Position numbers and translations under genes: made by a program. A stretch of DNA of 40,212 nt, from IMG/VR virus record IMGVR_UViG_2541047498_000018, one strand, 5' to 3'. Shown here piece after piece: positions 608 to 38,480 of this stretch (positions within the stretch are counted from its first letter, which is position 1; each line of letters starts with the position of its first letter). The notes under the pieces were generated by a model. That model did no database searches. It had not been told where the DNA came from and was given only the letters and a program-made list of their open reading frames with translations. This stretch comes from a virus. Its lineage: Duplodnaviria; Heunggongvirae; Uroviricota; Caudoviricetes.

Positions 608-1345
608 TCATTCACTCTCTTTCAAACCAGTTTTAACTGTTTGTGGTTTTGGGTAAGGCTGGACTTTGAATAGCTTTGTGTTGAGGCGTTTTCTGGCCCT
701 CTTGTTCAGAAACCGGATGTAACGAAACTGTCGGAACTTATGAACACTGGCTCTGTCAATATTAGCCCTCAGATGTTCACCTCGTTGTCCGCCTCGTTTA
801 ATGGCATTCCTGCAAATCTCGTGATACCACTCGCCATCAAGTTCATAGAATATTGATTCATGGCTGCCTACATAATCAAAATTGCTTGCCTGATACACGA
901 CACCAAGACAGCCACAACGCTCATCTGCAAACGACTGAACCCACTGTACCTGCGGATAAAGCTGCCTGATTAGCTTGAGCGCGTAACTGATTGCCCTTGA
1001 TTCGGAGTTTCTCGGCATACAGTCATGCAGCCATAGCCGGTTAAGCTCCATATATTCTCGGTTCTGCGTACCCGTTACGACGCGTGCACCACTGTTTGGG
1101 TTAAGGGCGTAACCCCATTGCATTACGCCAACAAGTTCCCGTTCTGAAAATATGCCCAGATGAAGGTAGGAGTTATTTACGAAACGGTGGCTGTAATGTT
1201 TATTGACGATGACCAGTCTGGCCAGCCAGCAACTTATTGTCTCAACCCGCAACTCACGGGAGCCATAACCAACGATATTGTCGTTATAGCGAATAAGTTC
1301 AGGCGTGCTGATGATTCGGGATGTGACTTGCTTTCTGTTCCCCAC
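608..1345 (-). CDS. mom: DNA modification protein Mom (adenine modification, antirestriction)
   Basis: 245-aa ORF as the last gene before the prophage end. Its 5' end overlaps the 3' end of the upstream Com-like zinc-finger gene, as in Mu. True start may be an internal codon. Confidence 0.8.
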
Positions 1346-2726: not shown

Positions 2727-4766
2727 TTATTCTGTTACCGCTTTTTTCACTTCCACCACAATGCTGTCAATCAGCACCGGGTAAGTTGCATTTTTTGTGA
2801 TATCCGTTACGCGGAGTTTGTCCACCGGGAAAGTTCCTACTGGTGACTGCGTCAGGGTAAACGCGGCACCATCCTGACCATCAATAACCGGAATAACCTG
2901 AAGGCTGTTATTTCCTGCAAAACGGAAGGCCAGCGTATGCCATTCATTATCAAATGCACCAAAGGTTCCCAGTTTCTGGTTATTTGTTGCCACTTTTGCA
3001 TTGTGGTACATCACATTCAGGTCTTTTGCGTCTGTCTGGATGTAGAACGATGCCAGCAGATTATTCCCTGCATCCCCTGTCAGGGTGACACCCTGCGGCA
3101 GAGAGGAAACCGGCCAGTAAAGCCCCATGACATACTGGTTTGCCACCAGGTCGCCAGGTACTTTAAAACGACAACTGATTAAACCACCATTTTTCAGCAG
3201 TTCAGCACCAGTACCGGCATCATGATCCAGATACCAAGATGATTTACCTGTTTCCTTGGTCAGTTTCATTGCCTTACCACCTGTGCCTCCTGCATCACTG
3301 ATAATTTCAGCTTTACCGCCAGCCGGCTCCCAGCCCTGGGCTTTCAGATTTCCTTCTGACTCACTGACACGATAAGACAGCAGTGTTGTGGTTACTGCTT
3401 CAGTTTCTGAAGGTGACGGCACTGGTGCTTCAGTTTCAGAAGATGGAACATCGGCTTTTACTGTGGTTCGCCCCGCATGAGTCAGAACTGCCGTGGCCAG
3501 ACGGTCGGAAATAATCCCACGACGTGCCCATGAACTGAAATGGCTGGCCCGGTCCGCAGATGTCCAGGTGGCGGCACTGTTACGCCACGTTGAGCCGTAA
3601 TAACCAATGGATTCAATATCCGGGTCTTCTGCCGGATTGTTGGTGGGTACATTCGCGTCATTTTCATCTGTCATTAATGGAACGAAATGAATGTTTTTAT
3701 CTGTTTTGTTTTTGTAGCCGCCATAGATTGCCTGGTATGCCGGTTCATTTTTCTGTTTCCAGAAATACGTGGTATCGCCACAAATCCACGGAACGCCAGC
3801 AGCACTGCCACCGGTACACTGTTCCGCCTGTTCAGCCAGGTCTGCGCGGAATTTTTCCACCATCGCCAGAAACAGCGCGGAATGCTCCGTCGGCTTCGCA
3901 TCAATATCAAACTCGCCCTGCATCCACACCACAGCAAGCAGGCGGTTTTTCGGGTTCTTCGCCAGTGCCGCTTTTGTCCGGCTGATTAAGTCCTTATACA
4001 GCGGCTTATCCACACCCCAGCGGGCTGAGTCCTCTGAAGCACCCGTGCTGTCACTGTACGTGCCGTCAGCACCCGCCGTGAATGCAGAACCACCACGGCA
4101 GCAGGGAACCAGCAGAATCCCCGCATCTGCCGGAATAAACGGCAGCAGTTTTTTGGCAATGTGAAGCCCCTGACCCACGGTGCCATATTGCCCTTTAGCC
4201 ACATCCGCTTTCGGGTGATTTTTTCCACTCATATCCTGCACATCATGCAGACAGTGGTCGGCCAGAATGATGTCGTTATACTGACAGGCTTTACCTCCCG
4301 GCGTGACTGTACTGCGACGGGCTAACTGCATAATACGCGGTTCGGGGCGGTCATATGTCTCCGGCAGTGGCAGACCTTCACCGTAAGCCATACCGTTTGA
4401 CTGACCAGCAAGAACCACCACGTAATACCAGGAAGGGGAGCTGGAAGCAGTTTCATTTCCTGACGGACGGGTATGTGTTTCAGCATTATCCCAGTCTGAC
4501 GGTTCAGCAGTACCGGCAACATCAGCACTTAACGGAATGACCGCACCAATACCCGCTCCGGTAATTTCCACACTCGGATCACCGGATACTGGCCTTACCC
4601 ACAGGCAATCCCGTGTATTAAAACTGATGAGACAGTCAGCAAATGTCATTCCTCCTTTTGTTTCGGCCGGAGGAAAGGGAGCCTCAAGAAATGCCGCTGT
4701 ACCACCGGAAACTTTAACAGTAAAGTTTCCGGGCATTGATGATAGTTGAACCCATTTGGACGTCAT
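2727..4766 (-). CDS. SASA/SGNH-family carbohydrate O-acetylesterase (NanS-p-like sialate O-acetylesterase) with C-terminal lectin-like domain
   Basis: 679-aa ORF with VVVLAGQSNGMAYGEG (the GQSN nucleophile motif of SASA esterases), a Ser/Thr/Pro/Glu-rich linker (SETEAPVPSPSETEA) and a roughly 250-aa C-terminal domain. This three-part layout matches prophage NanS-p esterases as recalled. Confidence 0.75.
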   Translation of the reverse strand: MTSKWVQLSSMPGNFTVKVSGGTAAFLEAPFPPAETKGGMTFADCLISFNTRDCLWVRPVSGDPSVEITGAGIGAVIPLSADVAGTAEPSDWDNAETHTRPSGNETASSSPSWYYVVVLAGQSNGMAYGEGLPLPETYDRPEPRIMQLARRSTVTPGGKACQYNDIILADHCLHDVQDMSGKNHPKADVAKGQYGTVGQGLHIAKKLLPFIPADAGILLVPCCRGGSAFTAGADGTYSDSTGASEDSARWGVDKPLYKDLISRTKAALAKNPKNRLLAVVWMQGEFDIDAKPTEHSALFLAMVEKFRADLAEQAEQCTGGSAAGVPWICGDTTYFWKQKNEPAYQAIYGGYKNKTDKNIHFVPLMTDENDANVPTNNPAEDPDIESIGYYGSTWRNSAATWTSADRASHFSSWARRGIISDRLATAVLTHAGRTTVKADVPSSETEAPVPSPSETEAVTTTLLSYRVSESEGNLKAQGWEPAGGKAEIISDAGGTGGKAMKLTKETGKSSWYLDHDAGTGAELLKNGGLISCRFKVPGDLVANQYVMGLYWPVSSLPQGVTLTGDAGNNLLASFYIQTDAKDLNVMYHNAKVATNNQKLGTFGAFDNEWHTLAFRFAGNNSLQVIPVIDGQDGAAFTLTQSPVGTFPVDKLRVTDITKNATYPVLIDSIVVEVKKAVTE

Positions 4767-4865: not shown

Positions 4866-5426
4866 TTATTTTTCCGAAACGCTCGCAGGATAATAACGAT
4901 AAAGGGTTGAAAGGCCGATATCAAAAATAAGTGCCACCTGTCTTCGACTGACACCCCCGGCCAGTAAACGCCCGACCTGCTCGTATTGTTCCTGCGTGAG
5001 ACGACGGGGTCTGCCGCCGGTTCGTCCCCTTTCACGGGCAGCTGCAAGACCAGCCCGTGTCCGTTCGACAATTAATTCACGCTCCATTTCTGCCAGCGCA
5101 CCCATTATGTGAAAAAAGAAGCGCCCCATGGGGGTTGACGTATCAATGTTGTCAGTAAGACTACGAAAATTTATCCCCTGTTGCTGTAATTCATCTGTCA
5201 GCGCAACAAGGTGGCGCATACTGCGCCCCAGCCTGTCCAGTTTCCAGACCATCAGTGTGTCACCGGGTTTTAGTTTCTTCAGTGCCCGCTTCAGTCCCGG
5301 CCGCTGTGTCGTTTTACCACTCATTTTATCTTCAAAAATCTGCTCACATCCTGCACATTCCAGCGCATTTCTTTGTAAACCTGTGTTCTGGTCATTTGTT
5401 GATACGCGTATATAGCCAATCAGCAT
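4866..5426 (-). CDS. gin: Gin serine DNA invertase (Hin/Gin/Cin/Pin resolvase-invertase family)
   Basis: 186 aa starting MLIGYIRVSTNDQ (catalytic Ser) with the conserved DRLGRS and GRFFFH...ALAEMERE motifs and a C-terminal HTH. It lies next to a gix-like site and the invertible segment. Confidence 0.95.
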   Translation of the reverse strand: MLIGYIRVSTNDQNTGLQRNALECAGCEQIFEDKMSGKTTQRPGLKRALKKLKPGDTLMVWKLDRLGRSMRHLVALTDELQQQGINFRSLTDNIDTSTPMGRFFFHIMGALAEMERELIVERTRAGLAAARERGRTGGRPRRLTQEQYEQVGRLLAGGVSRRQVALIFDIGLSTLYRYYPASVSEK

Positions 5427-5506: not shown

Positions 5507-5851
5507 ACTGTAAACAGGGCCGCGAATGCCCTGCCATCGAACGGAGCGGCTGTTGCAGCGAATAAACTCGCCACTCCAAGAAATATTAATGGTGTCCCAT
5601 TTGACGGAACGCAGGATATAAATATTACATCGGGGATGACGCAGTCTGTGGCTGACTCACGTTATGTTCAAAGCATTCGAAGAGGTTCAAGGTCAACGAT
5701 TGGAATGCAATATAATATTTTTGAGGTTCCTGACGGATGCGTACTTACAGGGCTTGATGTCGCTGGTGATGGTAATGCAACGGTAACCGCATATTATCGA
5801 CCTGTTCAGTTTCTGATAGATGGTTCGTGGAAAACAGCTTCCAGCGCATAA
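5501..5851 (+). CDS. Start-less alternative tail-fibre variable C-terminal cassette (S'v-like), expressed only after inversion
   Basis: Open frame directly inside the left gix site on the plus strand. It is homologous to the C-terminal part of S and has no start codon of its own upstream (TGA at 5486 in frame). Confidence 0.7.
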   Translation, partial: RDTVNRAANALPSNGAAVAANKLATPRNINGVPFDGTQDINITSGMTQSVADSRYVQSIRRGSRSTIGMQYNIFEVPDGCVLTGLDVAGDGNATVTAYYRPVQFLIDGSWKTASSA

Positions 5852-5930
5852 AAGTGCAGTAGTTCAAAAAACAGATTATCTGAATAAATATATGATGATT
5901 TTGTCTTTTCAACAAAAACAAGGTGAAATA

Positions 5931-6452
5931 ATGGAGCTTATTAACGTAAAACGATATTACCCGGAACACAAACCCTATGGTGAGGATGTTCAGTATTTCC
6001 AGAGTGAGGACGGAAGGGATTTTTATGAATCTATCCCGCTTTTCACAAAGAAATACAAACTCTGTATTTCGCCTGTAACGGGTATTATCTGCTCTGTTGC
6101 TGAAGATGTCTCTGCTTTATATCCGGCAGGTTTTACTGTTGTTGAAGTGGACGAACTGCCGGAAGGTGTGAATATTGACGGTAACTGGCAGTTTTCTGAT
6201 GGCCTGATATCAAAGGTGCCGGTAAACTGGAAGACGGTTGCTGAAAAGCGCCGCTCATCGCTGCTCCAGGAAGCCAACGAAACTGTGGATGACTGGAAAA
6301 CGGAATTAAAACTGGACATGATTAGCGATGAAAATAAATTACAGCTGACGCGCTGGATGGCGTATATCCGACAGCTTAAAGAAATGCACTTTAATGATAT
6401 TGCCAGTGAGGGGCATTACCAGGCGATTCCCTGGCCGGAAAAACCGGAATAA
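5931..6452 (+). CDS. Tail fibre assembly protein (U'/Tfa family)
   Basis: ATG at 5931 preceded by AAGGTGA. Contains SEDGRDFY near the N-terminus and a W.AY...L...I.WPE.P C-terminus typical of Tfa/U proteins. Co-oriented with the S'v cassette. Confidence 0.8.
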   Translation: MELINVKRYYPEHKPYGEDVQYFQSEDGRDFYESIPLFTKKYKLCISPVTGIICSVAEDVSALYPAGFTVVEVDELPEGVNIDGNWQFSDGLISKVPVNWKTVAEKRRSSLLQEANETVDDWKTELKLDMISDENKLQLTRWMAYIRQLKEMHFNDIASEGHYQAIPWPEKPE

Positions 6453-11189: not shown

Positions 11190-12543
11190 TAATCACCTCC
11201 ACTGAATGGCCTCCGGGAATGAACAGCGGATCAACAATACCGTTACGGCGCACAAAACGTTGCCAGCCGGTACTGTTCCCGGTGGCACGGTACAGGGTCA
11301 CCAGTGCAGGCTCGGTGGTACGTACAGTCACTACTGTTGCACCGGGTAGCTGAACTCCCCGTGTATTCAGATCCTCTGTCAGTGCCAGTCTGGCATCACG
11401 AAGCGTCAGCGCCGTGGCGGTATACCCCTGCCCGGACAGTGTCATCACCTGCCGTTCGAGCGCTTCGCTTAAGTCACGGTTAATGCGCTGAAGATCAACT
11501 GAACTTTCCAGCCAGACAGGCCAGGTACGGTGGGCTGCGTCACTGTCCGGCAGGGTTTCCTGACTGAGAACCTGATCCAGCAGTTTTCCCACGGTCTGTG
11601 CCTGGGCCACCACGGCAGCACTCTGCATTACCGCCCGTATCAGACGAATATTCTTTTGTGCTGCCGGTGTCAGACCGATGAGAGTCTGCGGATTATCCTG
11701 CTCATCCAGCACGTAACGCAGGGAAGATAATGTCCTGTACAGTTGCGGCATTCCCTGAGAGAAGGCGGATGTCGTCCGGCCGATACTGCCACCGGGCCGG
11801 GTATTCAGGCCTCCTGAAGACAGTGACGGCAGCGATGGCAGGGTGATCAGGGCACTGAAAAGCCCCGCAAAAGATGAGGCCATGCGGGAAGGTGCTGTCA
11901 GTAATGCCGTGGCATTCCCTTTCAGCGCCGTGAACGTGGCAGTAAAGGCACTGATATCCTGTACAATCCCCATGCCGGAAACGGCATTTTCCAGGGCGGA
12001 CACCTTATCGCTGATGGTTTCGGTCATTGCCTGGACATCGTGCATTCCGTCAGAAATCACCGTCCAGCCCGCTTCCAGGGTTTCAAAAACCTTCCCGAGC
12101 GCGGTGGTACTCTTCTGCTCCAGAATGGCGGCCGTGTCCTGTGTGACAGCAGGTGCGGTATCATCACTTACCGGCGTGACATTAATGGTGAACTCAACCA
12201 CGCCCTGTTCAGCAGCGTTATAACGACTTTCAAAGCTGTTTATCAGCACATTTAACGTGCCGTAATCCGGGTGAAGCAGCTCCCCGGCACCGGGAGCACG
12301 AAGGGCATCACGCAGACGATTTCGCTGTGTCTGAACATCATCCCCCATCACAAGTACACTGAACGTAAATTCAGCCAGTTTAGGTCCCAGATCGTCTGCA
12401 CCACCGGTTTCCCGTAACGGATATTCCCGACGGACAATGTTTCGCCCGCCACGTTCGCGCTGCTCACGCCAGACGAGGAACGGCACACCACGGAACGCAC
12501 CACGACCGTCACCAGAGGCCATAATTCCCTCCGTTCCAGACAT
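11173..12543 (-). CDS. DNA circularisation protein N-like (Mu gp43-like)
   Basis: 456-aa ORF directly after the tape measure gene. N-terminal FRGVPFLV motif as recalled for the Mu N family. Confidence 0.65.
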   Translation of the reverse strand: MSGTEGIMASGDGRGAFRGVPFLVWREQRERGGRNIVRREYPLRETGGADDLGPKLAEFTFSVLVMGDDVQTQRNRLRDALRAPGAGELLHPDYGTLNVLINSFESRYNAAEQGVVEFTINVTPVSDDTAPAVTQDTAAILEQKSTTALGKVFETLEAGWTVISDGMHDVQAMTETISDKVSALENAVSGMGIVQDISAFTATFTALKGNATALLTAPSRMASSFAGLFSALITLPSLPSLSSGGLNTRPGGSIGRTTSAFSQGMPQLYRTLSSLRYVLDEQDNPQTLIGLTPAAQKNIRLIRAVMQSAAVVAQAQTVGKLLDQVLSQETLPDSDAAHRTWPVWLESSVDLQRINRDLSEALERQVMTLSGQGYTATALTLRDARLALTEDLNTRGVQLPGATVVTVRTTEPALVTLYRATGNSTGWQRFVRRNGIVDPLFIPGGHSVEVISEQQG

Positions 12544-14584
12544 TCACATCCAGTCCGTGACCGGACGTGTCATCAATATCAATACTGCGAGCCTGCCACC
12601 CTTCCGGGGCAACCAGCTCCACACGGGCAGAGGCTTTTTGTACCGCCTGTCCACTGCTTTCATCATCACTGCCCCGTAATTTCTGCCAGGCTTCAGTCAG
12701 CCATCCCCCCAGATAGTTACCGAGATAGCTGCCCACCGTAGAACCAATGGCAATCCCCACAGGTCCGGCTGCCGCCCCCAGCGCACCACCGGCAATACTG
12801 CCTGCAAGAGAGCCGACCGCTTCTCCCTTGTCTGTGGCACTGGCGCTGCCATCCAGCAGAACCGGGGCTGCCATCGCGCCAGCCCACAGGGCACCGCCAC
12901 CCAGCCGGCCGGCCAGTCCACCGGCACTGCGGAAAAAGCCGGAGAAACGCCCCAGCCCCATGCGGCTACCGACAGACGAAAGTAACCCACCGGCGCGCCC
13001 CATCATGCGCCCCCAGAACCCTGCCCCACCAGAAGAGGGAGACGGTGGCACTGGGGACGGTGGCAGGGGAGGCGTGACCGGTCTTCCGCGCCCCGGTCCG
13101 CGTTTCCTGCGGCCCCGCCCCTGACGTCCGCCTGAGGAAGTATCGGTCGCGCCGGTGCCGGACAGTCCTCCTGTGGGCCAGTTTGTTACAAGTACTGGCT
13201 GAACGGCTGCCGGATTTACCCCGGTAAGAAAGTTTATAAAACGTTGCCCTCGTCCCTGAGATGTGCCTGGTGGTGTTCCGGCCGGAGGAGAGCGCCGGAA
13301 AGGTGAAGTCAGGAAGGCCGCCGCTGATAATCCGTATCCCAGCAATGCAGCACCCGGACGTATAATCCCCGTTCCGACAGCCCGCGCCATTTTCAGGGCA
13401 CGGGTGGCGAGATACATGTACAGCAGGTATTTCGCGGCGGTCTGTGCCCCCTGACCAATGCGATCCAGCGCATCACCATAGCCCGCATCCCGCAGAGCCT
13501 GAAGCGTGTCGCGTACCTTTCTGATCGCCTGATAAAACCCTGTCACTGCATCACGGGCATACTCAAAGCCCTGGTTCATGGCTGATGCCGTGCTTTCCGC
13601 CAGGGAATGGTAACTGCCATCAGATTTGGCACTGTCAACCCATGAAAGAAATCCCCTGAGATTACCCTTCAGTTTTTCAAATGGCCCACTGTCCATCACA
13701 TCCCGGGCAAACTGATCCCAGACGTCACCCATCATGGCCGTCAGGCCACTCCAGGAATTCATTGCGTCCTTTTGTGCTCCCCTGGCCTGTTCCGCCAGCG
13801 TCTGAAATAACAGGCGAATACTGTCCGGCCCAAGCAGCCCTTTTTCACCAAGTTTTCTGACCACTTTCTGGTCCACACCCAGACGATCAGCCAGCACGCG
13901 GTAGGCATTAATGCCGTAGGTGGCAAGAATATTTGCATCCGCCGCCTGAATACTGCCTCTTGCATACATCTGTTTCAGTTGCAGGGATGCCCCCTGTGCA
14001 TCGGACAGTGACCAGCCGCCCACGGCACCCTGATCCTGAAGCATGGTGACAAAATTTCGGGCCTCCCTGTCACTCATACCAAAGCCCAGACTGGACGTAT
14101 ATTCCTGCATGACGCCAGCCAGCCCCCAGGTGGTTTCCTTCGCATTCTGTATTGCCCACCTGCGGACATCATCAGTTTTCGCCCGATCCCCTTTGTAAAG
14201 GGAGTTCAGGCGAATCATATAGGTTTCCATCTCCGCTGCCGGGCGAATAAATCCCCGGTTAAAGCCATATACAGCAGCACCACCGGCCAGCATTCCGTAA
14301 AGATTGCTGATCCGCCCGATGGTGCCGGTAATACTGCCCTGAAGACGGTCAAAATCAGAAGTGACATGGCGGATACTGCCCCGCACCCCGGCCAGCGTGC
14401 GCTGCATCCTGCTTCCGAGTACATCTGTTTCCTGCCCGGCACGGCGGGCAGCATTTCCCAGGCCACCCAGCCCCGCCTGGCCGGAGCGTGAGAATGCCCC
14501 CAGCTCCTGTGACCACTGGCGGGATTTGGCTGAGATATTGCCGAGCAAATCAACTATCAGAGATGCTCTGAGATTTCGGGCCAT
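12509..14584 (-). CDS. Tail tape measure protein
   Basis: 691-aa ORF with an ATG at 14584, downstream of the tube and chaperone genes. It has a Gly/Ala-rich, low-complexity C-terminal region typical of tape measure proteins. Confidence 0.85.
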   Translation of the reverse strand: MARNLRASLIVDLLGNISAKSRQWSQELGAFSRSGQAGLGGLGNAARRAGQETDVLGSRMQRTLAGVRGSIRHVTSDFDRLQGSITGTIGRISNLYGMLAGGAAVYGFNRGFIRPAAEMETYMIRLNSLYKGDRAKTDDVRRWAIQNAKETTWGLAGVMQEYTSSLGFGMSDREARNFVTMLQDQGAVGGWSLSDAQGASLQLKQMYARGSIQAADANILATYGINAYRVLADRLGVDQKVVRKLGEKGLLGPDSIRLLFQTLAEQARGAQKDAMNSWSGLTAMMGDVWDQFARDVMDSGPFEKLKGNLRGFLSWVDSAKSDGSYHSLAESTASAMNQGFEYARDAVTGFYQAIRKVRDTLQALRDAGYGDALDRIGQGAQTAAKYLLYMYLATRALKMARAVGTGIIRPGAALLGYGLSAAAFLTSPFRRSPPAGTPPGTSQGRGQRFINFLTGVNPAAVQPVLVTNWPTGGLSGTGATDTSSGGRQGRGRRKRGPGRGRPVTPPLPPSPVPPSPSSGGAGFWGRMMGRAGGLLSSVGSRMGLGRFSGFFRSAGGLAGRLGGGALWAGAMAAPVLLDGSASATDKGEAVGSLAGSIAGGALGAAAGPVGIAIGSTVGSYLGNYLGGWLTEAWQKLRGSDDESSGQAVQKASARVELVAPEGWQARSIDIDDTSGHGLDVNVWNGGNYGLW

Positions 14585-14710
14585 ACTTACTGCTTCGTTC
14601 TGATGATTTTTTCTGTCTGTCGGCAGTGCCGGTAAAGTTGCGACAGGGGGAGGTTAAGCGCCCATTCCGGACCGCTTTTTGTCACCATCCCCAGGATAAT
14701 TGCCGCTTCT

Positions 14711-15205
14711 TCAATCTGATCCCGACACTGCGCCTGATCGCCCCCGGTCAGCTGCCAGCTTTCCGGCAAGCGCGGTATCCAGCAGGCTGACCGCTGCCAT
14801 CAGGCGGGAGAGATCGCGCTCGCTTAACTGTCCAATCTGACGGGGTGACAACGGACCTTCAATGTCTCCCACTGCGGCAATCTGACGGCGCAGCAGTGCA
14901 ACACCGCGTAACGACGGAGACGCTATCAGCATCGGGCCATTGTTTGTCTCCACCACGCGCTCGGCTTCTGCTTCTGCGTCAATACTGTCTTTCGCTGTCA
15001 GTTCCCGGAACGTGACACGATATTCACGGGTCTCACCAAACGGCAGACCATCAAGCAGATCCACATATCCCTTTGCCAGTTGCTCTGTCAGCCCGGCAGT
15101 GCGTGGATCAGCCCCCTCAAGTGCTTCCCGGATTGCCTCCATCACGGCTGCCTCGGAAACTGCCGTTTTTTTCTTACGTGTGGTCATTTTATTTTTCCTG
15201 ATCAC
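14711..15205 (-). CDS. Tail assembly chaperone-like protein (Mu gp41 position)
   Basis: ORF between the tail tube and tape measure genes. A downstream overlapping out-of-frame ORF (14587..14769) is present (see findings). Confidence 0.5.
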   Translation of the reverse strand: MIRKNKMTTRKKKTAVSEAAVMEAIREALEGADPRTAGLTEQLAKGYVDLLDGLPFGETREYRVTFRELTAKDSIDAEAEAERVVETNNGPMLIASPSLRGVALLRRQIAAVGDIEGPLSPRQIGQLSERDLSRLMAAVSLLDTALAGKLAADRGRSGAVSGSD

Positions 15206-15567
15206 TGAACACGGGTACTGGAGGCGCTGGCGAACTTCACGGAGATCTCCCCGCCACCGTCAAGCGAGGCCGGTTCACTGCTCCAGGCCTTCGTCATCAT
15301 GTGGACTTCGCCGGTATCCGCCACAAACTCGATAGTGACCGCAGTCCAGTTGTTGATTTCATCGGCGGCTGGTGAACCTTCTCCGCCTGCCGGAAATTTG
15401 CAGTCCAGCGTCGCTTCACGTGGTTTCTGGCGGTAACCATAGACTTTTGCGCCTTTCACCACTTCACGTTCAAAACCAGACGGAGAAAATGTAGCCCCCT
15501 CAAGCGTCTCGTATTCCTGACCGTTCACACGGATAGTGGCCGTACCCTGATACTGTTTTCCGCTCAT
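15202..15567 (-). CDS. Tail tube protein (Mu M-like)
   Basis: 121-aa ORF immediately downstream of the sheath gene. Confidence 0.7.
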   Translation of the reverse strand: MSGKQYQGTATIRVNGQEYETLEGATFSPSGFEREVVKGAKVYGYRQKPREATLDCKFPAGGEGSPAADEINNWTAVTIEFVADTGEVHMMTKAWSSEPASLDGGGEISVKFASASSTRVQ

Positions 15568-15575
15568 GCCTTACC

Positions 15576-17078
15576 TCACAAAATGAAACGGATCTGTGCT
15601 GCCAGGAAGCGGAACTGGTTAACCAGATCCGGCGTGCATAACACGTCAAGACGGTTTCGATCTGACGCATTACGCTCCACAAGCAGATTCTTTTTAAAGG
15701 TGTCCAGATTTTCGACCAGCCCGAGTTCCACCCACTCTTCACCCAGCGAAATTAACTGAAGCTTCATGATCTCCGGCGTCACGATATTCTGACCGGCACG
15801 AACGGGCGTCCCGTCATCAGCCAGTTTATGGCGCGGAAAACGTTGTGTGATAAAAGTACGCAGGGAATAACGCAGCCAGGAGAGGGTGTAGATGGTTTCC
15901 ACATCCAGATAGCTGGGATCACTTTCGCCGTACACGTTCTGGCGATACATGGTCACCTGACGTTCGATCTGAACCACATCACCGGCAGCCACACTGACCG
16001 TGGCAATCCCTCCCCACAGCAGACTGTTACGCTCTTCACGCGTCAGACGATCGGCCGGAGCCGGGGCCATGCGTGACGGAAGCGCCAGCGTCTGAAGCGG
16101 ACGCGCAGGATCTGCTCCCAGAGAGGGTGCACAGGTGGCACAGACCGCCGCTGCCCAGAGGTAATCCGGTTCAGGGGCTTTGGGAATGGATGTGCAGGTC
16201 GCCAGAAAATCATTGCGTTTTGCCCCGAATGCCTGCACCTCACCAAACGTGCCGGTATGTGCCAGCCACAGCACGCCGTCAGACATTTTGGCCGGTCCCC
16301 AGCGTTTCAGAAGCTCATCACTGATGATTTTCAGGTTTGCATCATCCTTATAGGGCATGACGACATAGTTGTACTGGCGATCGCCCATACCCGCCACGCT
16401 TCGGGTGATATCCGGGTTAGCCGCTTTTTGTTTCGGATAGGCTATAGCGACCTGTATTCCTTCCGGGGTTGCTTCCCCGTCGTGATAGTTCAGGCGCACA
16501 TCATGAACGGAGCATTCACCGGTAAAGCGGGCGGTGATCCCCAGAGACCCTTTCAGACCTGCGCCATTATCACCACTTCCTGCACCAGAGGAGGCCGTGA
16601 AGGGCGCGTCAGGATCGGCATTGATCAGCGCGGCCAGCTCGTCGGTCAGTTCTTTGCCTTTCTTACCTTTTGGTGCCGGGAGTGTATAACGCCGCCCCCC
16701 CACGCAGGCATAAACAATCCCGTCACGGGTGACCGTTCCGGTCAGATTCATGGCCGCAGCCGTTGCCTGTCCGGTGCCGTTCCCCTGAGCAATGGCATAC
16801 AGTTCAGCATCAGGATTGATGGCGATAAATTCCGCCACCATCAGGGCAATCATGGAGCCGCGCCCCCAGAGTTCTGTTGCCTGAGACGCACGGGTGATCC
16901 TGACCGGAACATCCAGAACACCGGCACCGTCCACGGCATTCTCTTTCATTCTCGCCTGACCAAACAGCAGCACACACTGACGCTGTGCCGGAGTGCCGGT
17001 GACAGCCATGGAGTTATTAAACTCAACCTCAATCAGCGGTATACGGCGGTCATTACCGATCCCGTCAAAATTAATCAT
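15576..17078 (-). CDS. Contractile tail sheath protein (Mu L-like)
   Basis: 500-aa ORF upstream of the tube gene, with the size and position of the Mu sheath protein. Confidence 0.8.
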   Translation of the reverse strand: MINFDGIGNDRRIPLIEVEFNNSMAVTGTPAQRQCVLLFGQARMKENAVDGAGVLDVPVRITRASQATELWGRGSMIALMVAEFIAINPDAELYAIAQGNGTGQATAAAMNLTGTVTRDGIVYACVGGRRYTLPAPKGKKGKELTDELAALINADPDAPFTASSGAGSGDNGAGLKGSLGITARFTGECSVHDVRLNYHDGEATPEGIQVAIAYPKQKAANPDITRSVAGMGDRQYNYVVMPYKDDANLKIISDELLKRWGPAKMSDGVLWLAHTGTFGEVQAFGAKRNDFLATCTSIPKAPEPDYLWAAAVCATCAPSLGADPARPLQTLALPSRMAPAPADRLTREERNSLLWGGIATVSVAAGDVVQIERQVTMYRQNVYGESDPSYLDVETIYTLSWLRYSLRTFITQRFPRHKLADDGTPVRAGQNIVTPEIMKLQLISLGEEWVELGLVENLDTFKKNLLVERNASDRNRLDVLCTPDLVNQFRFLAAQIRFIL

Positions 17079-36389: not shown

Positions 36390-38480
36390 TCAGGCCAGCG
36401 GGTCATTTTCTTTTAATTTCGCTTCCAGCAACTGCAATCCCCGCTGGAAATTACGCTCGTATTCTTCATCAGGTTCATCGTCAGCGACCGGTTGCTGAAC
36501 GGTCACCGTATTACCCACAGGGCGGTATATGTTTTCCAGCCAGGGCTCCTGCGGCTTGTGCTCCAGCACGTTGACAACCTCATCCTCGGCATCACGGATT
36601 TTTTCCTCTGCGCGTTTACGCATGCCTTTAAGGCGTTGCTGCTGTTTGTAGTATTCCGCGCTGACCGGGAAGGCTTCGCGTTTATTGCCGTCCCATACCG
36701 CCTCGCAAATCACGCTGCCATCCAGGCGACGTACGGTAATTCGTTCGGCATCATGAATGTCATAGCTGATAAGCACCTTACGGCCATGCTCGTCACGCAG
36801 CTCGGGCGCGTAGTAAATATTATTCAGCCAGCGTATTTCACAGCGTCTTACAGGGCGTTCCACCATCGGCCGGAACATATCCCGCAGCTCAACATCGGAC
36901 AGCCATTCAATTTCCGTGTCCTCTTCCGCCAGGCGTTTTTTTCTGAACTCCGCCGGGCTGTAATGCTTGCCGTTCGGCTTCACCGGTAATTCATCGTGCG
37001 GCCGGTTGTTGTACCACTCAACACCGTCACGAATGGCATCAATCAGTTCAGACCAGGACGGTAAATCACGCATCGCTGACTGCTGCCGGGCGTTCAGCCG
37101 TTTGCCCTGTTGCAGGGCAGTAAATGCCGAGCGTAAATCGCGGTTGGTTTTGCGTAACGTCTCGCGATCTGCACCTTTCCCGAAATAGGTGCGGTATTTA
37201 CGGGCTATGCGCATCGGTAATGTGCGGTTAAGCCGTTCGATAATGCCTCGTCCCTGCGGATTACCGGCAATCCCGGTCGGGTGATTAATCCCCAGTCGCG
37301 GCAGTATCCCCACAACCTCCTTATCCAGGATGTCGGCGGTTTCCCCGGAGCCGTTATCCGAGTAATACAGAAACGGTTTGCCGTGATGGCGAATGCCGTG
37401 CTGTATGGCACCGGCTACGGCGAAAACATTTTCAGCCAGGTCAAGGCTCCAGCCCACCACAAAGCGCGTGCCACCGTCGATAACAAAGGTCACTTCCGGT
37501 GCAAATGGCCGACCGTGAACCGGGTGTGCGCATTTCAGCTTCATGCCGTGACCGTCACCAATCCAGACATAATTCACCGGCATTCTGGACCAGTCGCGGC
37601 GCGTGAATCCCTCAAGCTGGCGGTATTCACTGCCGGTCACCCGGCCTTTTTGTTTCACCACTTCCGGCAGTTTCTTCATTGCGCGGCGAATGGTGTCATA
37701 AGACGGCATGATATCGAGCATATAAGGCTCATCAGCGTGCCGGTGCTGCCATTCAGCGACAAAATCCTCGTAAGCCTCGGTCATTGGTCGGCCGTTTGAC
37801 TGGCGATACTGCGCCAGAAATTCGGGCAGCCAGTTAATATCTTCGGCTTTTATTTCCTGGCGCTTACCCGGTGCCAGTAAAAGCAGGCGTTCAGCGGCGT
37901 TCTGCGCCTTGTTAAAGGCCGCAATCCAGCGTTTCAGCGTGATTTCACTTAACGCGCGGCTGTTTCCCTTTTTGGCGTTCGCCGTCTCAACCATTGCCAC
38001 AATGCGCTCGTCCAGCTGCGAACGTGCCAGGTTGTCAACGATAAACCGGATAGCCTTCGCACAGCTGAAACCAGGTTGTTGCGCGACTTTCAGAACTTCG
38101 CTGACGATCGCGATTCGTGCATCAGCCACCTGGCGCTGGTTTTCAGTCAGGGCATTAAGGCGTTCGACCATCAGTTGTGGTGATCCGCGATATGCCTCCA
38201 CCGCATCAACCACGGCAGGCGAGCGTCTGGCCTTTGTCACCACTGGAGCCGGTGATTCATCGACTTTTTGAGTCATCAGTTGCAGGGCGTAGCGTTCACG
38301 TAATGCCTGCTGCGTCACTTCAGGTAAACAGTCGATGCTGTATTCAGTTGCTTTAGAGCCTGAGCGACGACGGGAACAACAGCTTTTCCCTTGTACGTAA
38401 CGTTGTAATGCCTGGCGAATACCTTTTGTTGTAGCAGGCATTCCGGGCGCGCCAATCAGTTCTTTTGCAATGACATACAT
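36390..38480 (-). CDS. A: MuA-like DDE transposase
   Basis: 696-aa ORF immediately after ner, at the Mu A position and size (Mu A is 663 aa). Contains a DGHG motif consistent with a DDE catalytic core. Confidence 0.93.
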   Translation of the reverse strand: MYVIAKELIGAPGMPATTKGIRQALQRYVQGKSCCSRRRSGSKATEYSIDCLPEVTQQALRERYALQLMTQKVDESPAPVVTKARRSPAVVDAVEAYRGSPQLMVERLNALTENQRQVADARIAIVSEVLKVAQQPGFSCAKAIRFIVDNLARSQLDERIVAMVETANAKKGNSRALSEITLKRWIAAFNKAQNAAERLLLLAPGKRQEIKAEDINWLPEFLAQYRQSNGRPMTEAYEDFVAEWQHRHADEPYMLDIMPSYDTIRRAMKKLPEVVKQKGRVTGSEYRQLEGFTRRDWSRMPVNYVWIGDGHGMKLKCAHPVHGRPFAPEVTFVIDGGTRFVVGWSLDLAENVFAVAGAIQHGIRHHGKPFLYYSDNGSGETADILDKEVVGILPRLGINHPTGIAGNPQGRGIIERLNRTLPMRIARKYRTYFGKGADRETLRKTNRDLRSAFTALQQGKRLNARQQSAMRDLPSWSELIDAIRDGVEWYNNRPHDELPVKPNGKHYSPAEFRKKRLAEEDTEIEWLSDVELRDMFRPMVERPVRRCEIRWLNNIYYAPELRDEHGRKVLISYDIHDAERITVRRLDGSVICEAVWDGNKREAFPVSAEYYKQQQRLKGMRKRAEEKIRDAEDEVVNVLEHKPQEPWLENIYRPVGNTVTVQQPVADDEPDEEYERNFQRGLQLLEAKLKENDPLA

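What the first reader, a model, noticed from the sequence alone, without database searches (positions are those of the whole stretch)
14587..14769. Possible recoding between the tail-chaperone ORF and the tape measure gene
A 60-codon ORF in a different frame overlaps the last 59 nt of the chaperone-like gene (14711..15205) and ends 3 nt before the tape measure start. The overlap contains a G5 run (GACCGGGGGCG on the coding strand). Tail assembly chaperones upstream of tape measure genes are commonly made in two forms by programmed frameshifting. Here the alternative frame is +1 (equivalently -2) relative to the chaperone, which is atypical.
Basis: inference. Interest (0 to 1): 0.4.

Follow-up and report, generated by a model that had tools for sequence, protein, structure and literature searches.

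The report
Mu-type -2 frameshift in tail chaperone
The small overlapping ORF is the C-terminal extension of the tail assembly chaperone of a Mu-like E. coli prophage, reached by the same -2 ribosomal frameshift site (CGG GGG CGA) that was shown experimentally in phage Mu; it is real and conserved, but already known.

Summary
On the minus strand, a gp41-like tail assembly chaperone (14711-15187) is followed by an ORF in the +1/-2 frame (14587-14769). This ORF fills the otherwise unannotated gap up to the tape measure gene (12509-14584). The G run is part of CGG GGG CGA (14746-14738), in phase with the chaperone. This 9-mer, in the same phase, is the site in phage Mu gp41, whose GenBank record is annotated 'verified -2 translational frameshift'.

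The 50-residue extension is 50% identical to Mu's extension and matches PHROG 12783 (E 1.3e-36). In 14 fetched loci (Escherichia to Vibrio) and 64 IMG/VR loci:
- The in-phase GGG CGA is present in all but one locus, which has a 1-nt deletion in the G run.
- In the 14 loci examined in detail, the -2 frame stays open for 47-51 codons and ends within 17 nt of the tape measure start. The -1 frame closes within about 20 codons, and no start codon is conserved.
- Substitutions concentrate at third codon positions of the extension frame.

No conserved downstream RNA structure was found. The predicted product is a 200-aa fusion, made alongside the 158-aa chaperone. The 'atypical' direction is the documented Mu case. 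Low interest; RefSeq leaves the extension unannotated.

The parts
14711..15187 (-). Tail assembly chaperone gene (Mu gp41 homologue, analogue of lambda G / P2 E). Zero-frame product is 158 aa from the ATG at 15187; the mechanical ORF extends to a GTG at 15205.
   Evidence: Pfam PF23746 Gp41_Mu E 7.6e-32 and PF10109 Phage_TAC_7 E 1.2e-5. PHROG 508 'tail assembly chaperone' E 1.2e-46. tblastn 49% identity to Mu gp41. PGAP calls the 158-aa form in identical genomes.
14738..14746 (-). Slip site CGG GGG CGA in the chaperone's zero frame, 9 codons before its stop codon. Proposed tandem -2 slippage with tRNA-Gly on GGG (P site) and tRNA-Arg on the rare CGA (A site).
   Evidence: Position and phase. 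It is the only GGGGGCGA in the window. The same 9-mer in the same phase occurs in Mu. The Mu site is quoted as GG GGG CGA in PMC3458567. It is conserved in 12 of 14 fetched loci and 55 of 64 IMG/VR loci, with AAG GGG CGA in most of the rest. CGA is only 4.3% of Arg codons in this prophage.
14587..14739 (-). The -2 frame extension (analogue of lambda T / Mu 'gp41.5'): 50 codons plus a TAA stop, beginning with GAT, which re-reads the last two bases of CGA. Peptide: DQAQCRDQIEEAAIILGMVTKSGPEWALNLPLSQLYRHCRQTEKIIRTKQ.
   Evidence: Translation. 50% identity to the Mu extension. PHROG 12783 E 1.3e-36. Third-position-biased substitutions. It is 47-51 codons long in the 14 loci examined.
14711..14739 (-). 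Dual-coding overlap, read in the zero frame (end of the chaperone, ...SGAVSGSD*) and in the -2 frame (start of the extension).
   Evidence: The overlap after the slip site is 27 nt here and 6-27 nt in relatives.
14587..15187 (-). Predicted frameshift fusion product: complement(join(14738..15187, 14587..14739)), 200 aa (150 aa of chaperone plus 50 aa of extension).
   Evidence: Constructed. The join follows the Mu_56 annotation. AlphaFold2 model has mean pLDDT 73, with a helical extension.
12509..14584 (-). Tape measure protein gene (691 aa), starting 2 nt after the extension's stop codon.
   Evidence: Pfam PF20155 TMP_3 E 1.9e-18; ORF.
15202..15567 (-). Tail tube protein gene (121 aa), immediately upstream of the chaperone. 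It is the inferred binding partner of the extension.
   Evidence: Pfam PF10618 Tail_tube E 3.3e-31.
15576..17078 (-). Tail sheath gene (500 aa). Completes the sheath-tube-chaperone-tape measure order typical of Mu.
   Evidence: Pfam Phage_sheath_1 / 1C / domII. Same gene order in Mu.

Best explanation
This is the orthologue, in a Mu-like (Sp18-type) E. coli prophage, of the phage Mu gp41 programmed -2 ribosomal frameshift.

Most ribosomes translate the chaperone gene to its stop at 14711 and make the 158-aa tail assembly chaperone. A minority pause with tRNA-Gly on GGG in the P site and tRNA-Arg(ICG) on the rare codon CGA in the A site. Both tRNAs slip two bases back, onto GGG and GGC. Translation then continues with GAU in the -2 frame for 50 more codons and stops 2 nt before the tape measure start. 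The result is a 200-aa fusion protein.

By analogy with lambda gpG/gpGT, the shared N-terminal part coats the tape measure protein, and the extension recruits the tail tube protein. A fixed low ratio of fusion to chaperone would thus be built into translation.

Shown here: the homology, the slip site, the open frame and selection on its protein sequence. Inferred: that slippage occurs in this prophage, its -2 direction, its efficiency, and what the extension binds.
For: 1. Gene identity and context. Gp41_Mu E 7.6e-32, between the tail tube and tape measure genes, within a complete Mu-like prophage with MuA transposase, Mom and a Gin-like invertase.
2. Slip site. CGG GGG CGA in phase, the same as Mu. 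Reviews state that -2 frameshifting is used in Mu, on GG GGG CGA.
3. Extension homology. 50% identical to Mu's and matches PHROG 12783 at E 1.3e-36.
4. Conservation across Escherichia, Salmonella, Serratia, an Erwinia-type prophage, Citrobacter, Klebsiella, Pasteurella, Shewanella, Vibrio and an alteromonad phage. In all 14 loci the +1/-2 frame is open for 47-51 codons from the slip site and ends between -17 and +14 nt of the tape measure start. After the slip site the -1 frame stays open for only 8-19 codons in the IMG/VR loci and closes soon after the slip site in the 14 loci.
5. Slip-site tally in 64 IMG/VR loci: 54 CGGGGGCGA, 1 AGGGGGCGA, 8 AAGGGGCGA, 1 indel.
6. The slip site is an island of identity in otherwise diverged DNA. 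The Arg codon is CGA at every intact site, although CGA is only 4.3% of Arg codons here.
7. Coding signature in the extension frame. Differences by codon position are 4/1/10 against an 89%-identical relative, with 9 synonymous versus 3 non-synonymous codon changes. Amino-acid identity is highest and stops are absent only in that frame.
8. No conserved start codon in the extension frame. D108 has none, and Mu's first is at codon 27, downstream of conserved residues.
Against: - No experiment on this prophage: neither the fusion protein nor its junction has been observed here.
- No stimulatory RNA structure was found downstream. Fold z-scores are +0.47 (window) and -0.19 (Mu). There is no consensus structure across 11 sequences, and only a weak one (-5.3 kcal/mol) in six enterobacterial sequences. 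Efficiency therefore cannot be argued from sequence.
- The closest sister clade has AAG GGG CGA. This would leave a first-position mismatch after a -2 shift of the P-site tRNA, so perfect re-pairing is not universally kept.
- The role of the extension in a contractile-tail phage is inferred from lambda. It has no Pfam family and no solved relative.
Confidence: 0.9

Rival explanations
1. Same fusion, different event: a +1 ribosomal frameshift. The P-site tRNA-Gly slips from GGG to GGC while the A site waits on the slowly decoded CGA. The junction would be ...AADRG-DQAQ..., one residue shorter than the -2 product.
For: - The +1 and -2 shifts reach the same frame.
- The rare A-site codon CGA is present at every intact site.
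- The Salmonella/Serratia clade has AAG GGG CGA. This weakens -2 re-pairing but leaves a +1 slip on GGG-C unaffected.
Against: - For the identical 9-mer in Mu, the annotation and reviews state a verified -2 shift.
- The run of five G's upstream is conserved in 55 of 64 IMG/VR loci. This matters for a backward slip and is irrelevant to a +1 slip.
Confidence: 0.05
2. The 60-codon ORF is an independent small gene with its own initiation (as annotated for D108 gene 41.5), not a frameshift extension.
For: - ORF listing finds a TTG at 14769.
- D108 carries a separate CDS '41.5'.
- PHROG 12783 is a family of such separately called ORFs.
Against: - There is no conserved start codon. In D108 the frame has no ATG/GTG/TTG at all. 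In Mu the first is at codon 27, after the conserved CR..IE.AA block.
- In Mu the frame opens only 4 codons before the slip site, so the residues upstream of it in the window are not conserved.
- The in-phase slip site with its invariant rare CGA would be unexplained.
- No promoter-like site lies nearby.
Confidence: 0.03
3. The frame change arises at the nucleic-acid level. RNA polymerase slippage, or length heterogeneity of the G5 run (G5 to G4), produces a fraction of mRNAs or genomes that encode the fusion directly.
For: Database entries with a G4 run encode a continuous fusion: P0099-P0101, L049 and L083, whose neighbouring genes are intact.
Against: - Five G's is shorter than the homopolymers known to give productive transcriptional slippage (established knowledge, summarised in PMC5009743).
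- L009 and L049 carry many other indels, so they are error-prone assemblies or decayed copies.
- Conservation of the CGA codon after the run is explained by a ribosomal A-site effect, not by polymerase slippage.
Confidence: 0.015
4. Chance open reading frame in a G+C-rich intergenic region, with no function.
For: Within the window alone, 50 open codons in a +1 frame have P about 0.13, and the 8-mer is not enriched.
Against: - The protein is conserved to 50% identity with Mu and recognisably out to Vibrio and Shewanella phages.
- Substitutions are biased to third codon positions.
- The length is constant at 47-51 codons, and the frame ends at the tape measure start in all 14 loci examined.
Confidence: 0.005

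Closest known systems
Phage Mu gp41 / gp41-extension (Mu_41 / Mu_56), programmed -2 ribosomal frameshift (Xu, Hendrix and Duda 2004, PMID 15469818, as cited in GenBank AF083977 and in PMC5009743 and PMC3458567)
   Same: - Homologous chaperone (49% identity).
[quoted passage not shown]
- A 50-codon extension in the same frame with 50% identity.
- The same gene order: sheath, tube, chaperone, tape measure.
   Different: - The overlap after the slip site is 27 nt, against 21 nt in Mu.
- The extension's stop lies 2 nt, against 14 nt, before the tape measure ATG.
- The chaperone has a longer, basic N-terminus (158 against 144 aa).
- The DNA is too diverged for blastn to align.
- There is no experimental verification here, and RefSeq does not annotate the fusion.
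Lambda gpG / gpGT tail assembly chaperones (-1 frameshift; Levin et al. 1993; Xu et al. 2013, 2014, as summarised in PMC5009743)
   Same: - Two products share an N-terminus and are made from the gene just upstream of the tape measure gene.
[quoted passage not shown]
- Neither product is in the virion.
- This is the presumed functional model: the shared part binds the tape measure protein and the extension binds the tube protein.
   Different: - Lambda shifts by -1 on a heptamer; here the -1 frame closes within about 20 codons.
- Lambda has a non-contractile tail.
P2 gpE / gpE+E' (Pfam PF10109 Phage_TAC_7, 'E, or 41 or 14')
   Same: A myophage tail chaperone pair upstream of the tape measure gene. 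The chaperone part of the window protein just reaches the family threshold (25.7 bits against a cut-off of 25, E 1.2e-5).
   Different: P2 uses a -1 shift (from established knowledge; not tested here). The window's extension matches no Pfam family.
Other -2 frameshift sites: arterivirus nsp2TF and Trichomonas vaginalis virus 1 (PMC5009743)
   Same: Net -2 slippage of the ribosome, giving access to the +1 frame.
   Different: These are eukaryotic RNA viruses with unrelated slip sequences and unrelated proteins. The similarity is in direction only.

Membership tests
Mu-type gp41 -2 programmed frameshift (tail assembly chaperone pair of Mu-like myophages) | The upstream gene is a homologue of Mu gp41. 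| tested here: met
   Pfam PF23746 Gp41_Mu E 7.6e-32, covering the whole profile. tblastn to Mu: 49% identity, E 4e-26.
Mu-type gp41 -2 programmed frameshift (tail assembly chaperone pair of Mu-like myophages) | The gene lies between the tail tube gene and the tape measure gene. | tested here: met
   Tail_tube at 15202-15567 and TMP_3 at 12509-14584. Same order in Mu.
Mu-type gp41 -2 programmed frameshift (tail assembly chaperone pair of Mu-like myophages) | [quoted passage not shown] | tested here: met
   CGG GGG CGA at 14746-14738, phase 0, 27 nt before the end of the stop codon. Same 9-mer as Mu L002 1858-1866. Site as quoted in PMC3458567.
Mu-type gp41 -2 programmed frameshift (tail assembly chaperone pair of Mu-like myophages) | The -2/+1 frame is open from the slip site to the tape measure start and encodes a homologue of the Mu extension. 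| tested here: met
   50 codons, with the stop 2 nt before the tape measure ATG. 50% identity to Mu. PHROG 12783 E 1.3e-36.
Mu-type gp41 -2 programmed frameshift (tail assembly chaperone pair of Mu-like myophages) | The extension frame is under purifying selection as protein and lacks its own conserved initiation signal. | tested here: met
   Third-position bias and an excess of synonymous changes. Start codons are not conserved.
Mu-type gp41 -2 programmed frameshift (tail assembly chaperone pair of Mu-like myophages) | A fusion protein with a -2 junction is actually produced. | not testable with these tools
   Known only for Mu itself (annotation note). It needs expression and mass spectrometry for this prophage.
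Lambda-type G/GT -1 frameshift | A -1 slippery heptamer (X XXY YYZ), with the extension ORF in the -1 frame. | tested here: not met
   The extension lies in the +1/-2 frame. After the slip site the -1 frame is open for only 18 codons, and the whole -1 open stretch is 21 codons. G GGG CGA is not of the form X XXY YYZ (read directly from the sequence).
Frameshift sites with a 3' stimulatory RNA structure | A stable, conserved hairpin or pseudoknot a few nucleotides downstream of the slip site. | tested here: not met
   Fold z-scores +0.47 and -0.19. No consensus structure in 11 sequences. Only -5.3 kcal/mol with almost no covariation in 6 sequences. No Rfam match.
Tail assembly chaperone fold (HK97 gp10 / YqbN type) | The structure of the N-terminal part resembles solved tail assembly chaperones. 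| tested here: inconclusive

The most novel reading that the evidence does not exclude
The shift into the extension frame in this family may not depend on perfect -2 re-pairing of the P-site tRNA. The nearest sister clade (Salmonella, Serratia) keeps the extension intact with AAG GGG CGA. The invariant elements are therefore GGG plus the rare CGA codon. If so, the event could be driven mainly by slow decoding of CGA. It could then be +1 in some members, or a mixture of +1 and -2 (possibly also in the window's prophage), with an efficiency tuned by the first base of the run.
Probability: 0.1. Interest if true: 0.35.

Novelty: already known. Interest (0 to 1): 0.12.

Why it matters
As biology it adds little, because it is another copy of the textbook exception among phage tail chaperone frameshifts (-2 instead of -1). 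Two things have practical value.

- Annotation. RefSeq/PGAP leaves the extension unannotated in the genome checked. The region matches in about 230 complete E. coli genomes, including O157:H7, O26, O103 and O111 STEC, and gene calls in related enterobacterial contigs show the same gap. A 200-aa tail assembly protein is thus missing from these proteomes, and the gap looks like non-coding DNA.
- Comparative data. The comparison gives a clean natural mutagenesis series for the only well-documented bacterial -2 site. GGG CGA is kept at every intact site, and the base before the run tolerates C, A or (as AAG) loss of one G.

Tried and rejected
- A scan of genome contigs with the single fusion sequence found no relatives. 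An alignment-based scan of viral contigs was used instead.
- The primary paper (PMID 15469818) is not in the held library. Full-text searches for the slip-site strings, Mup41 and gp41.5 gave nothing relevant. The experimental status of Mu therefore rests on the GenBank note and two secondary papers.
- A downstream stimulatory structure was not found: single-sequence folds, alignment folds and Rfam.
- No conserved Shine-Dalgarno-like element upstream was seen when inspecting the 30 nt before the site in 14 loci.
- The extension has no Pfam family even at E up to 10. The fusion has no NCBIfam family and no solved relative by sequence.
- The structural search gave only weak chaperone-fold hits for the N-terminal part and nothing specific for the helical extension.
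- The 'fused' database proteins P0099-P0101 were first considered as evidence for annotated frameshift products. They turned out to come from G4 variants of the run. P0099 comes from an assembly full of indels, and P0100 from a locus that otherwise looks intact.
- Rejected rivals: an independent small gene, transcriptional slippage and a chance ORF. A +1 shift cannot be excluded from sequence alone.

Full report
**What is there.**
On the minus strand the window carries the tail module of a Mu-like prophage:
- tail sheath (15576-17078);
- tail tube (15202-15567);
- a 158/164-codon gene (14711-15187, or 15205 from the upstream GTG);
- after a 126-nt gap, a 691-codon tape measure gene (12509-14584).

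The small gene is a clear homologue of Mu gp41. It matches Pfam Gp41_Mu at E 7.6e-32, just reaches the P2 E / Mu 41 chaperone family PF10109, and matches PHROG 508 'tail assembly chaperone'.

The rest of the window confirms a complete Mu-type element. It has a MuA-type transposase, a Mom protein, a Gin-like invertase next to a tail-fibre assembly gene on the other strand, and Mu gp48. A 901-nt stretch around the finding is 99-100% identical in 195 complete E. coli chromosomes, many of them O157:H7, O26, O103 and O111 strains. This fits the Mu-like prophage Sp18 of O157 Sakai, which was judged intact (PMC2669165). The equation with Sp18 is my inference.

**Check of the observation.**
The 60-codon ORF at 14587-14769, its 59-nt overlap with the chaperone, its +1/-2 frame and the G5 run are all as described. 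Two details need adjusting. Two nucleotides, not three, separate its stop from the tape measure ATG. The TTG 'start' is only the first start codon in a frame that is open for 70 codons.

In isolation none of this is beyond chance. Fifty open codons in a +1 frame of this prophage have P about 0.13. GGGGGCGA occurs once, against 2.3 expected.

**The slip site.**
The G run is part of CGG GGG CGA (14746-14738), exactly in phase with the chaperone codons (…Ala-Asp-Arg-Gly-Arg…) and nine codons before the stop. Phage Mu has the same nine bases in the same phase near the end of gp41 (…Gln-Glu-Arg-Gly-Arg…).

The curated Mu record AF083977 carries a joined CDS, Mu_56. [quoted passage not shown] Lin et al. 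describe it as tandem -2 slippage on GG GGG CGA, in which the A-site tRNA-Arg (anticodon ICG) re-pairs better in the -2 frame than in the -1 frame (PMC3458567).

Applying the same event here gives …LAADRGR followed by DQAQCRDQIEEAAIILGMVTKSGPEWALNLPLSQLYRHCRQTEKIIRTKQ. This is a 200-aa fusion of 150 chaperone residues and 50 extension residues.

**Is the extension real?**
- It is 50% identical to the Mu extension (EWLRCRNDIEKAATAIGVILKSGPEWALSLPLSRFFRHCQQAKTLSQYHR), although the DNA is too diverged for blastn.
- It matches PHROG 12783, a family of such small ORFs, at E 1.3e-36.
- I compared 14 loci: the window, Mu, D108, an 84%-identical E. coli prophage, prophages from Salmonella, Serratia, Citrobacter, Klebsiella variicola and an Erwinia-type one, and phages of an alteromonad, Pasteurella, Shewanella and two Vibrio. 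In every one the +1/-2 frame is open for 47-51 codons from the slip site and ends between 17 nt inside and 14 nt before the tape measure start. The -1 frame closes soon after the slip site.
- Substitutions between relatives fall mainly on third positions of the extension frame. Against the 89%-identical relative the counts by codon position are 4/1/10, with nine synonymous and three non-synonymous codon changes. The pattern is similar in eight other pairs. Only this frame is free of stops and has the highest amino-acid identity.
- No start codon is conserved in this frame. D108 has none, and Mu's first lies at codon 27, after the conserved Cys-Arg…Ile-Glu…Ala-Ala block. This argues against a separately initiated gene, despite the D108 annotation '41.5'.

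**Conservation of the site.**
In the aligned flanks of the 14 loci, the slip site is the only shared string. Among 64 further loci from IMG/VR:
- 54 have CGG GGG CGA;
- 1 has AGG GGG CGA;
- 8 (the Salmonella/Serratia clade) have AAG GGG CGA;
- 1 has a shortened run, in a copy with other indels.

The Arg codon is CGA at every intact site, although CGA makes up only 4.3% of Arg codons in this prophage. Conservation of a rare synonymous codon in the A-site position is what a ribosomal mechanism predicts. A polymerase-slippage mechanism does not predict it.

**What was not found.**
- There is no Rfam match.
- The 98 nt downstream have no fold energy beyond shuffled controls, in the window or in Mu.
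- There is no consensus structure across the family, and only a weak one without meaningful covariation in enterobacterial members.
- I saw no conserved Shine-Dalgarno-like element upstream.
- The site therefore seems to rely on the slippery run plus the slow codon. Its efficiency cannot be estimated from sequence.

**Function.**
This part is inferred. In lambda the shared G part of gpG and gpGT binds the tape measure protein and the T part binds the major tail protein. The ratio set by frameshifting is needed for tail assembly (summary in PMC5009743). The same division of labour is the most likely one here, with the tail tube protein (15202-15567) as partner of the extension.

**Rivals.**
- A +1 shift on GGG-C with a slow CGA reaches the same frame and cannot be excluded from sequence. 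The AAG variant of the sister clade gives it some plausibility. However, the shift at the identical site in Mu is reported as -2, and the G5 run is widely conserved.
- Independent initiation, transcriptional slippage and a chance ORF are each contradicted by the comparative data above.

**Verdict.**
The 'atypical' direction is the known hallmark of Mu and its relatives, so the finding is already known in kind and in mechanism.

The locus has modest practical interest because PGAP leaves the extension unannotated in the E. coli genome checked. Gene calls in the other contigs examined show the same unannotated gap.

Noticed in passing
L004 3591-3716 (= window 14585-14710); also L005, L006, L007, L010, L011, L012: RefSeq/PGAP and other gene calls leave a gap of 126-146 nt between the chaperone and the tape measure gene. 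Neither the frameshift fusion nor the extension ORF is annotated in the genomes and contigs examined, and the region matches in about 230 complete E. coli genomes.
   Followed up: partly
L005 2956-2964, L006 2959-2967, L040-L043, L045-L047, L051: The closest sister clade (Salmonella, Serratia; chaperone 67-82% identical) has AAG GGG CGA instead of CGG GGG CGA, yet keeps an intact, conserved 51-codon extension. After a -2 slip the P-site tRNA-Gly would face AGG, a first-position mismatch. Either efficiency is lower or the event differs (+1?).
   Followed up: partly
L083 3405-3412 (Logan ERR1010218); also P0099/L009, P0101, L049: Some database copies have a G4 run (GAA CGG GGC GAG), which fuses chaperone and extension into one continuous 187-aa ORF. 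In L083 the neighbouring sheath, tube and tape measure genes are intact, so it may be a real fusion-only mutant or a homopolymer error. L009 and L049 carry many other indels.
   Followed up: partly
window 2727-4766 (-): A 679-aa ORF with a SASA sialate O-acetylesterase domain and DUF6645 (E 2.4e-69) lies between the invertase and mom, in a region of lower G+C content. It looks like a NanS-p-type esterase cargo gene, known from STEC lambdoid prophages (from memory), here carried by a Mu-like prophage.
   Followed up: no
window 4866-5426 (-) and 5820-6452 (+): A Gin-like serine invertase (Resolvase + HTH_7, E 1.4e-51) sits next to a tail-fibre assembly gene on the opposite strand. This is presumably the invertible host-range segment reported for Sp18. 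The inverted repeats were not searched for.
   Followed up: no
window 14584-14590 (-): The extension's stop (TAA) lies 2 nt before the tape measure ATG, and there is no strong Shine-Dalgarno sequence upstream. In several distant relatives the extension ORF overlaps the tape measure start by 8-17 nt. This may mean translational coupling of the tape measure gene to frameshifted ribosomes, or it may just be tight packing.
   Followed up: no
L004 1224-2725: In E. coli E2865 the tail sheath gene of the otherwise identical prophage is flagged as a frameshifted pseudogene. The window's copy (15576-17078) is an intact 500-codon ORF.
   Followed up: no
window 608-1345 (-) and 36390-38480 (-): The Mom protein (E 4e-77) and the MuA-type transposase mark the two ends of a complete Mu-like prophage of about 38 kb, contained within the window.
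   Followed up: partly
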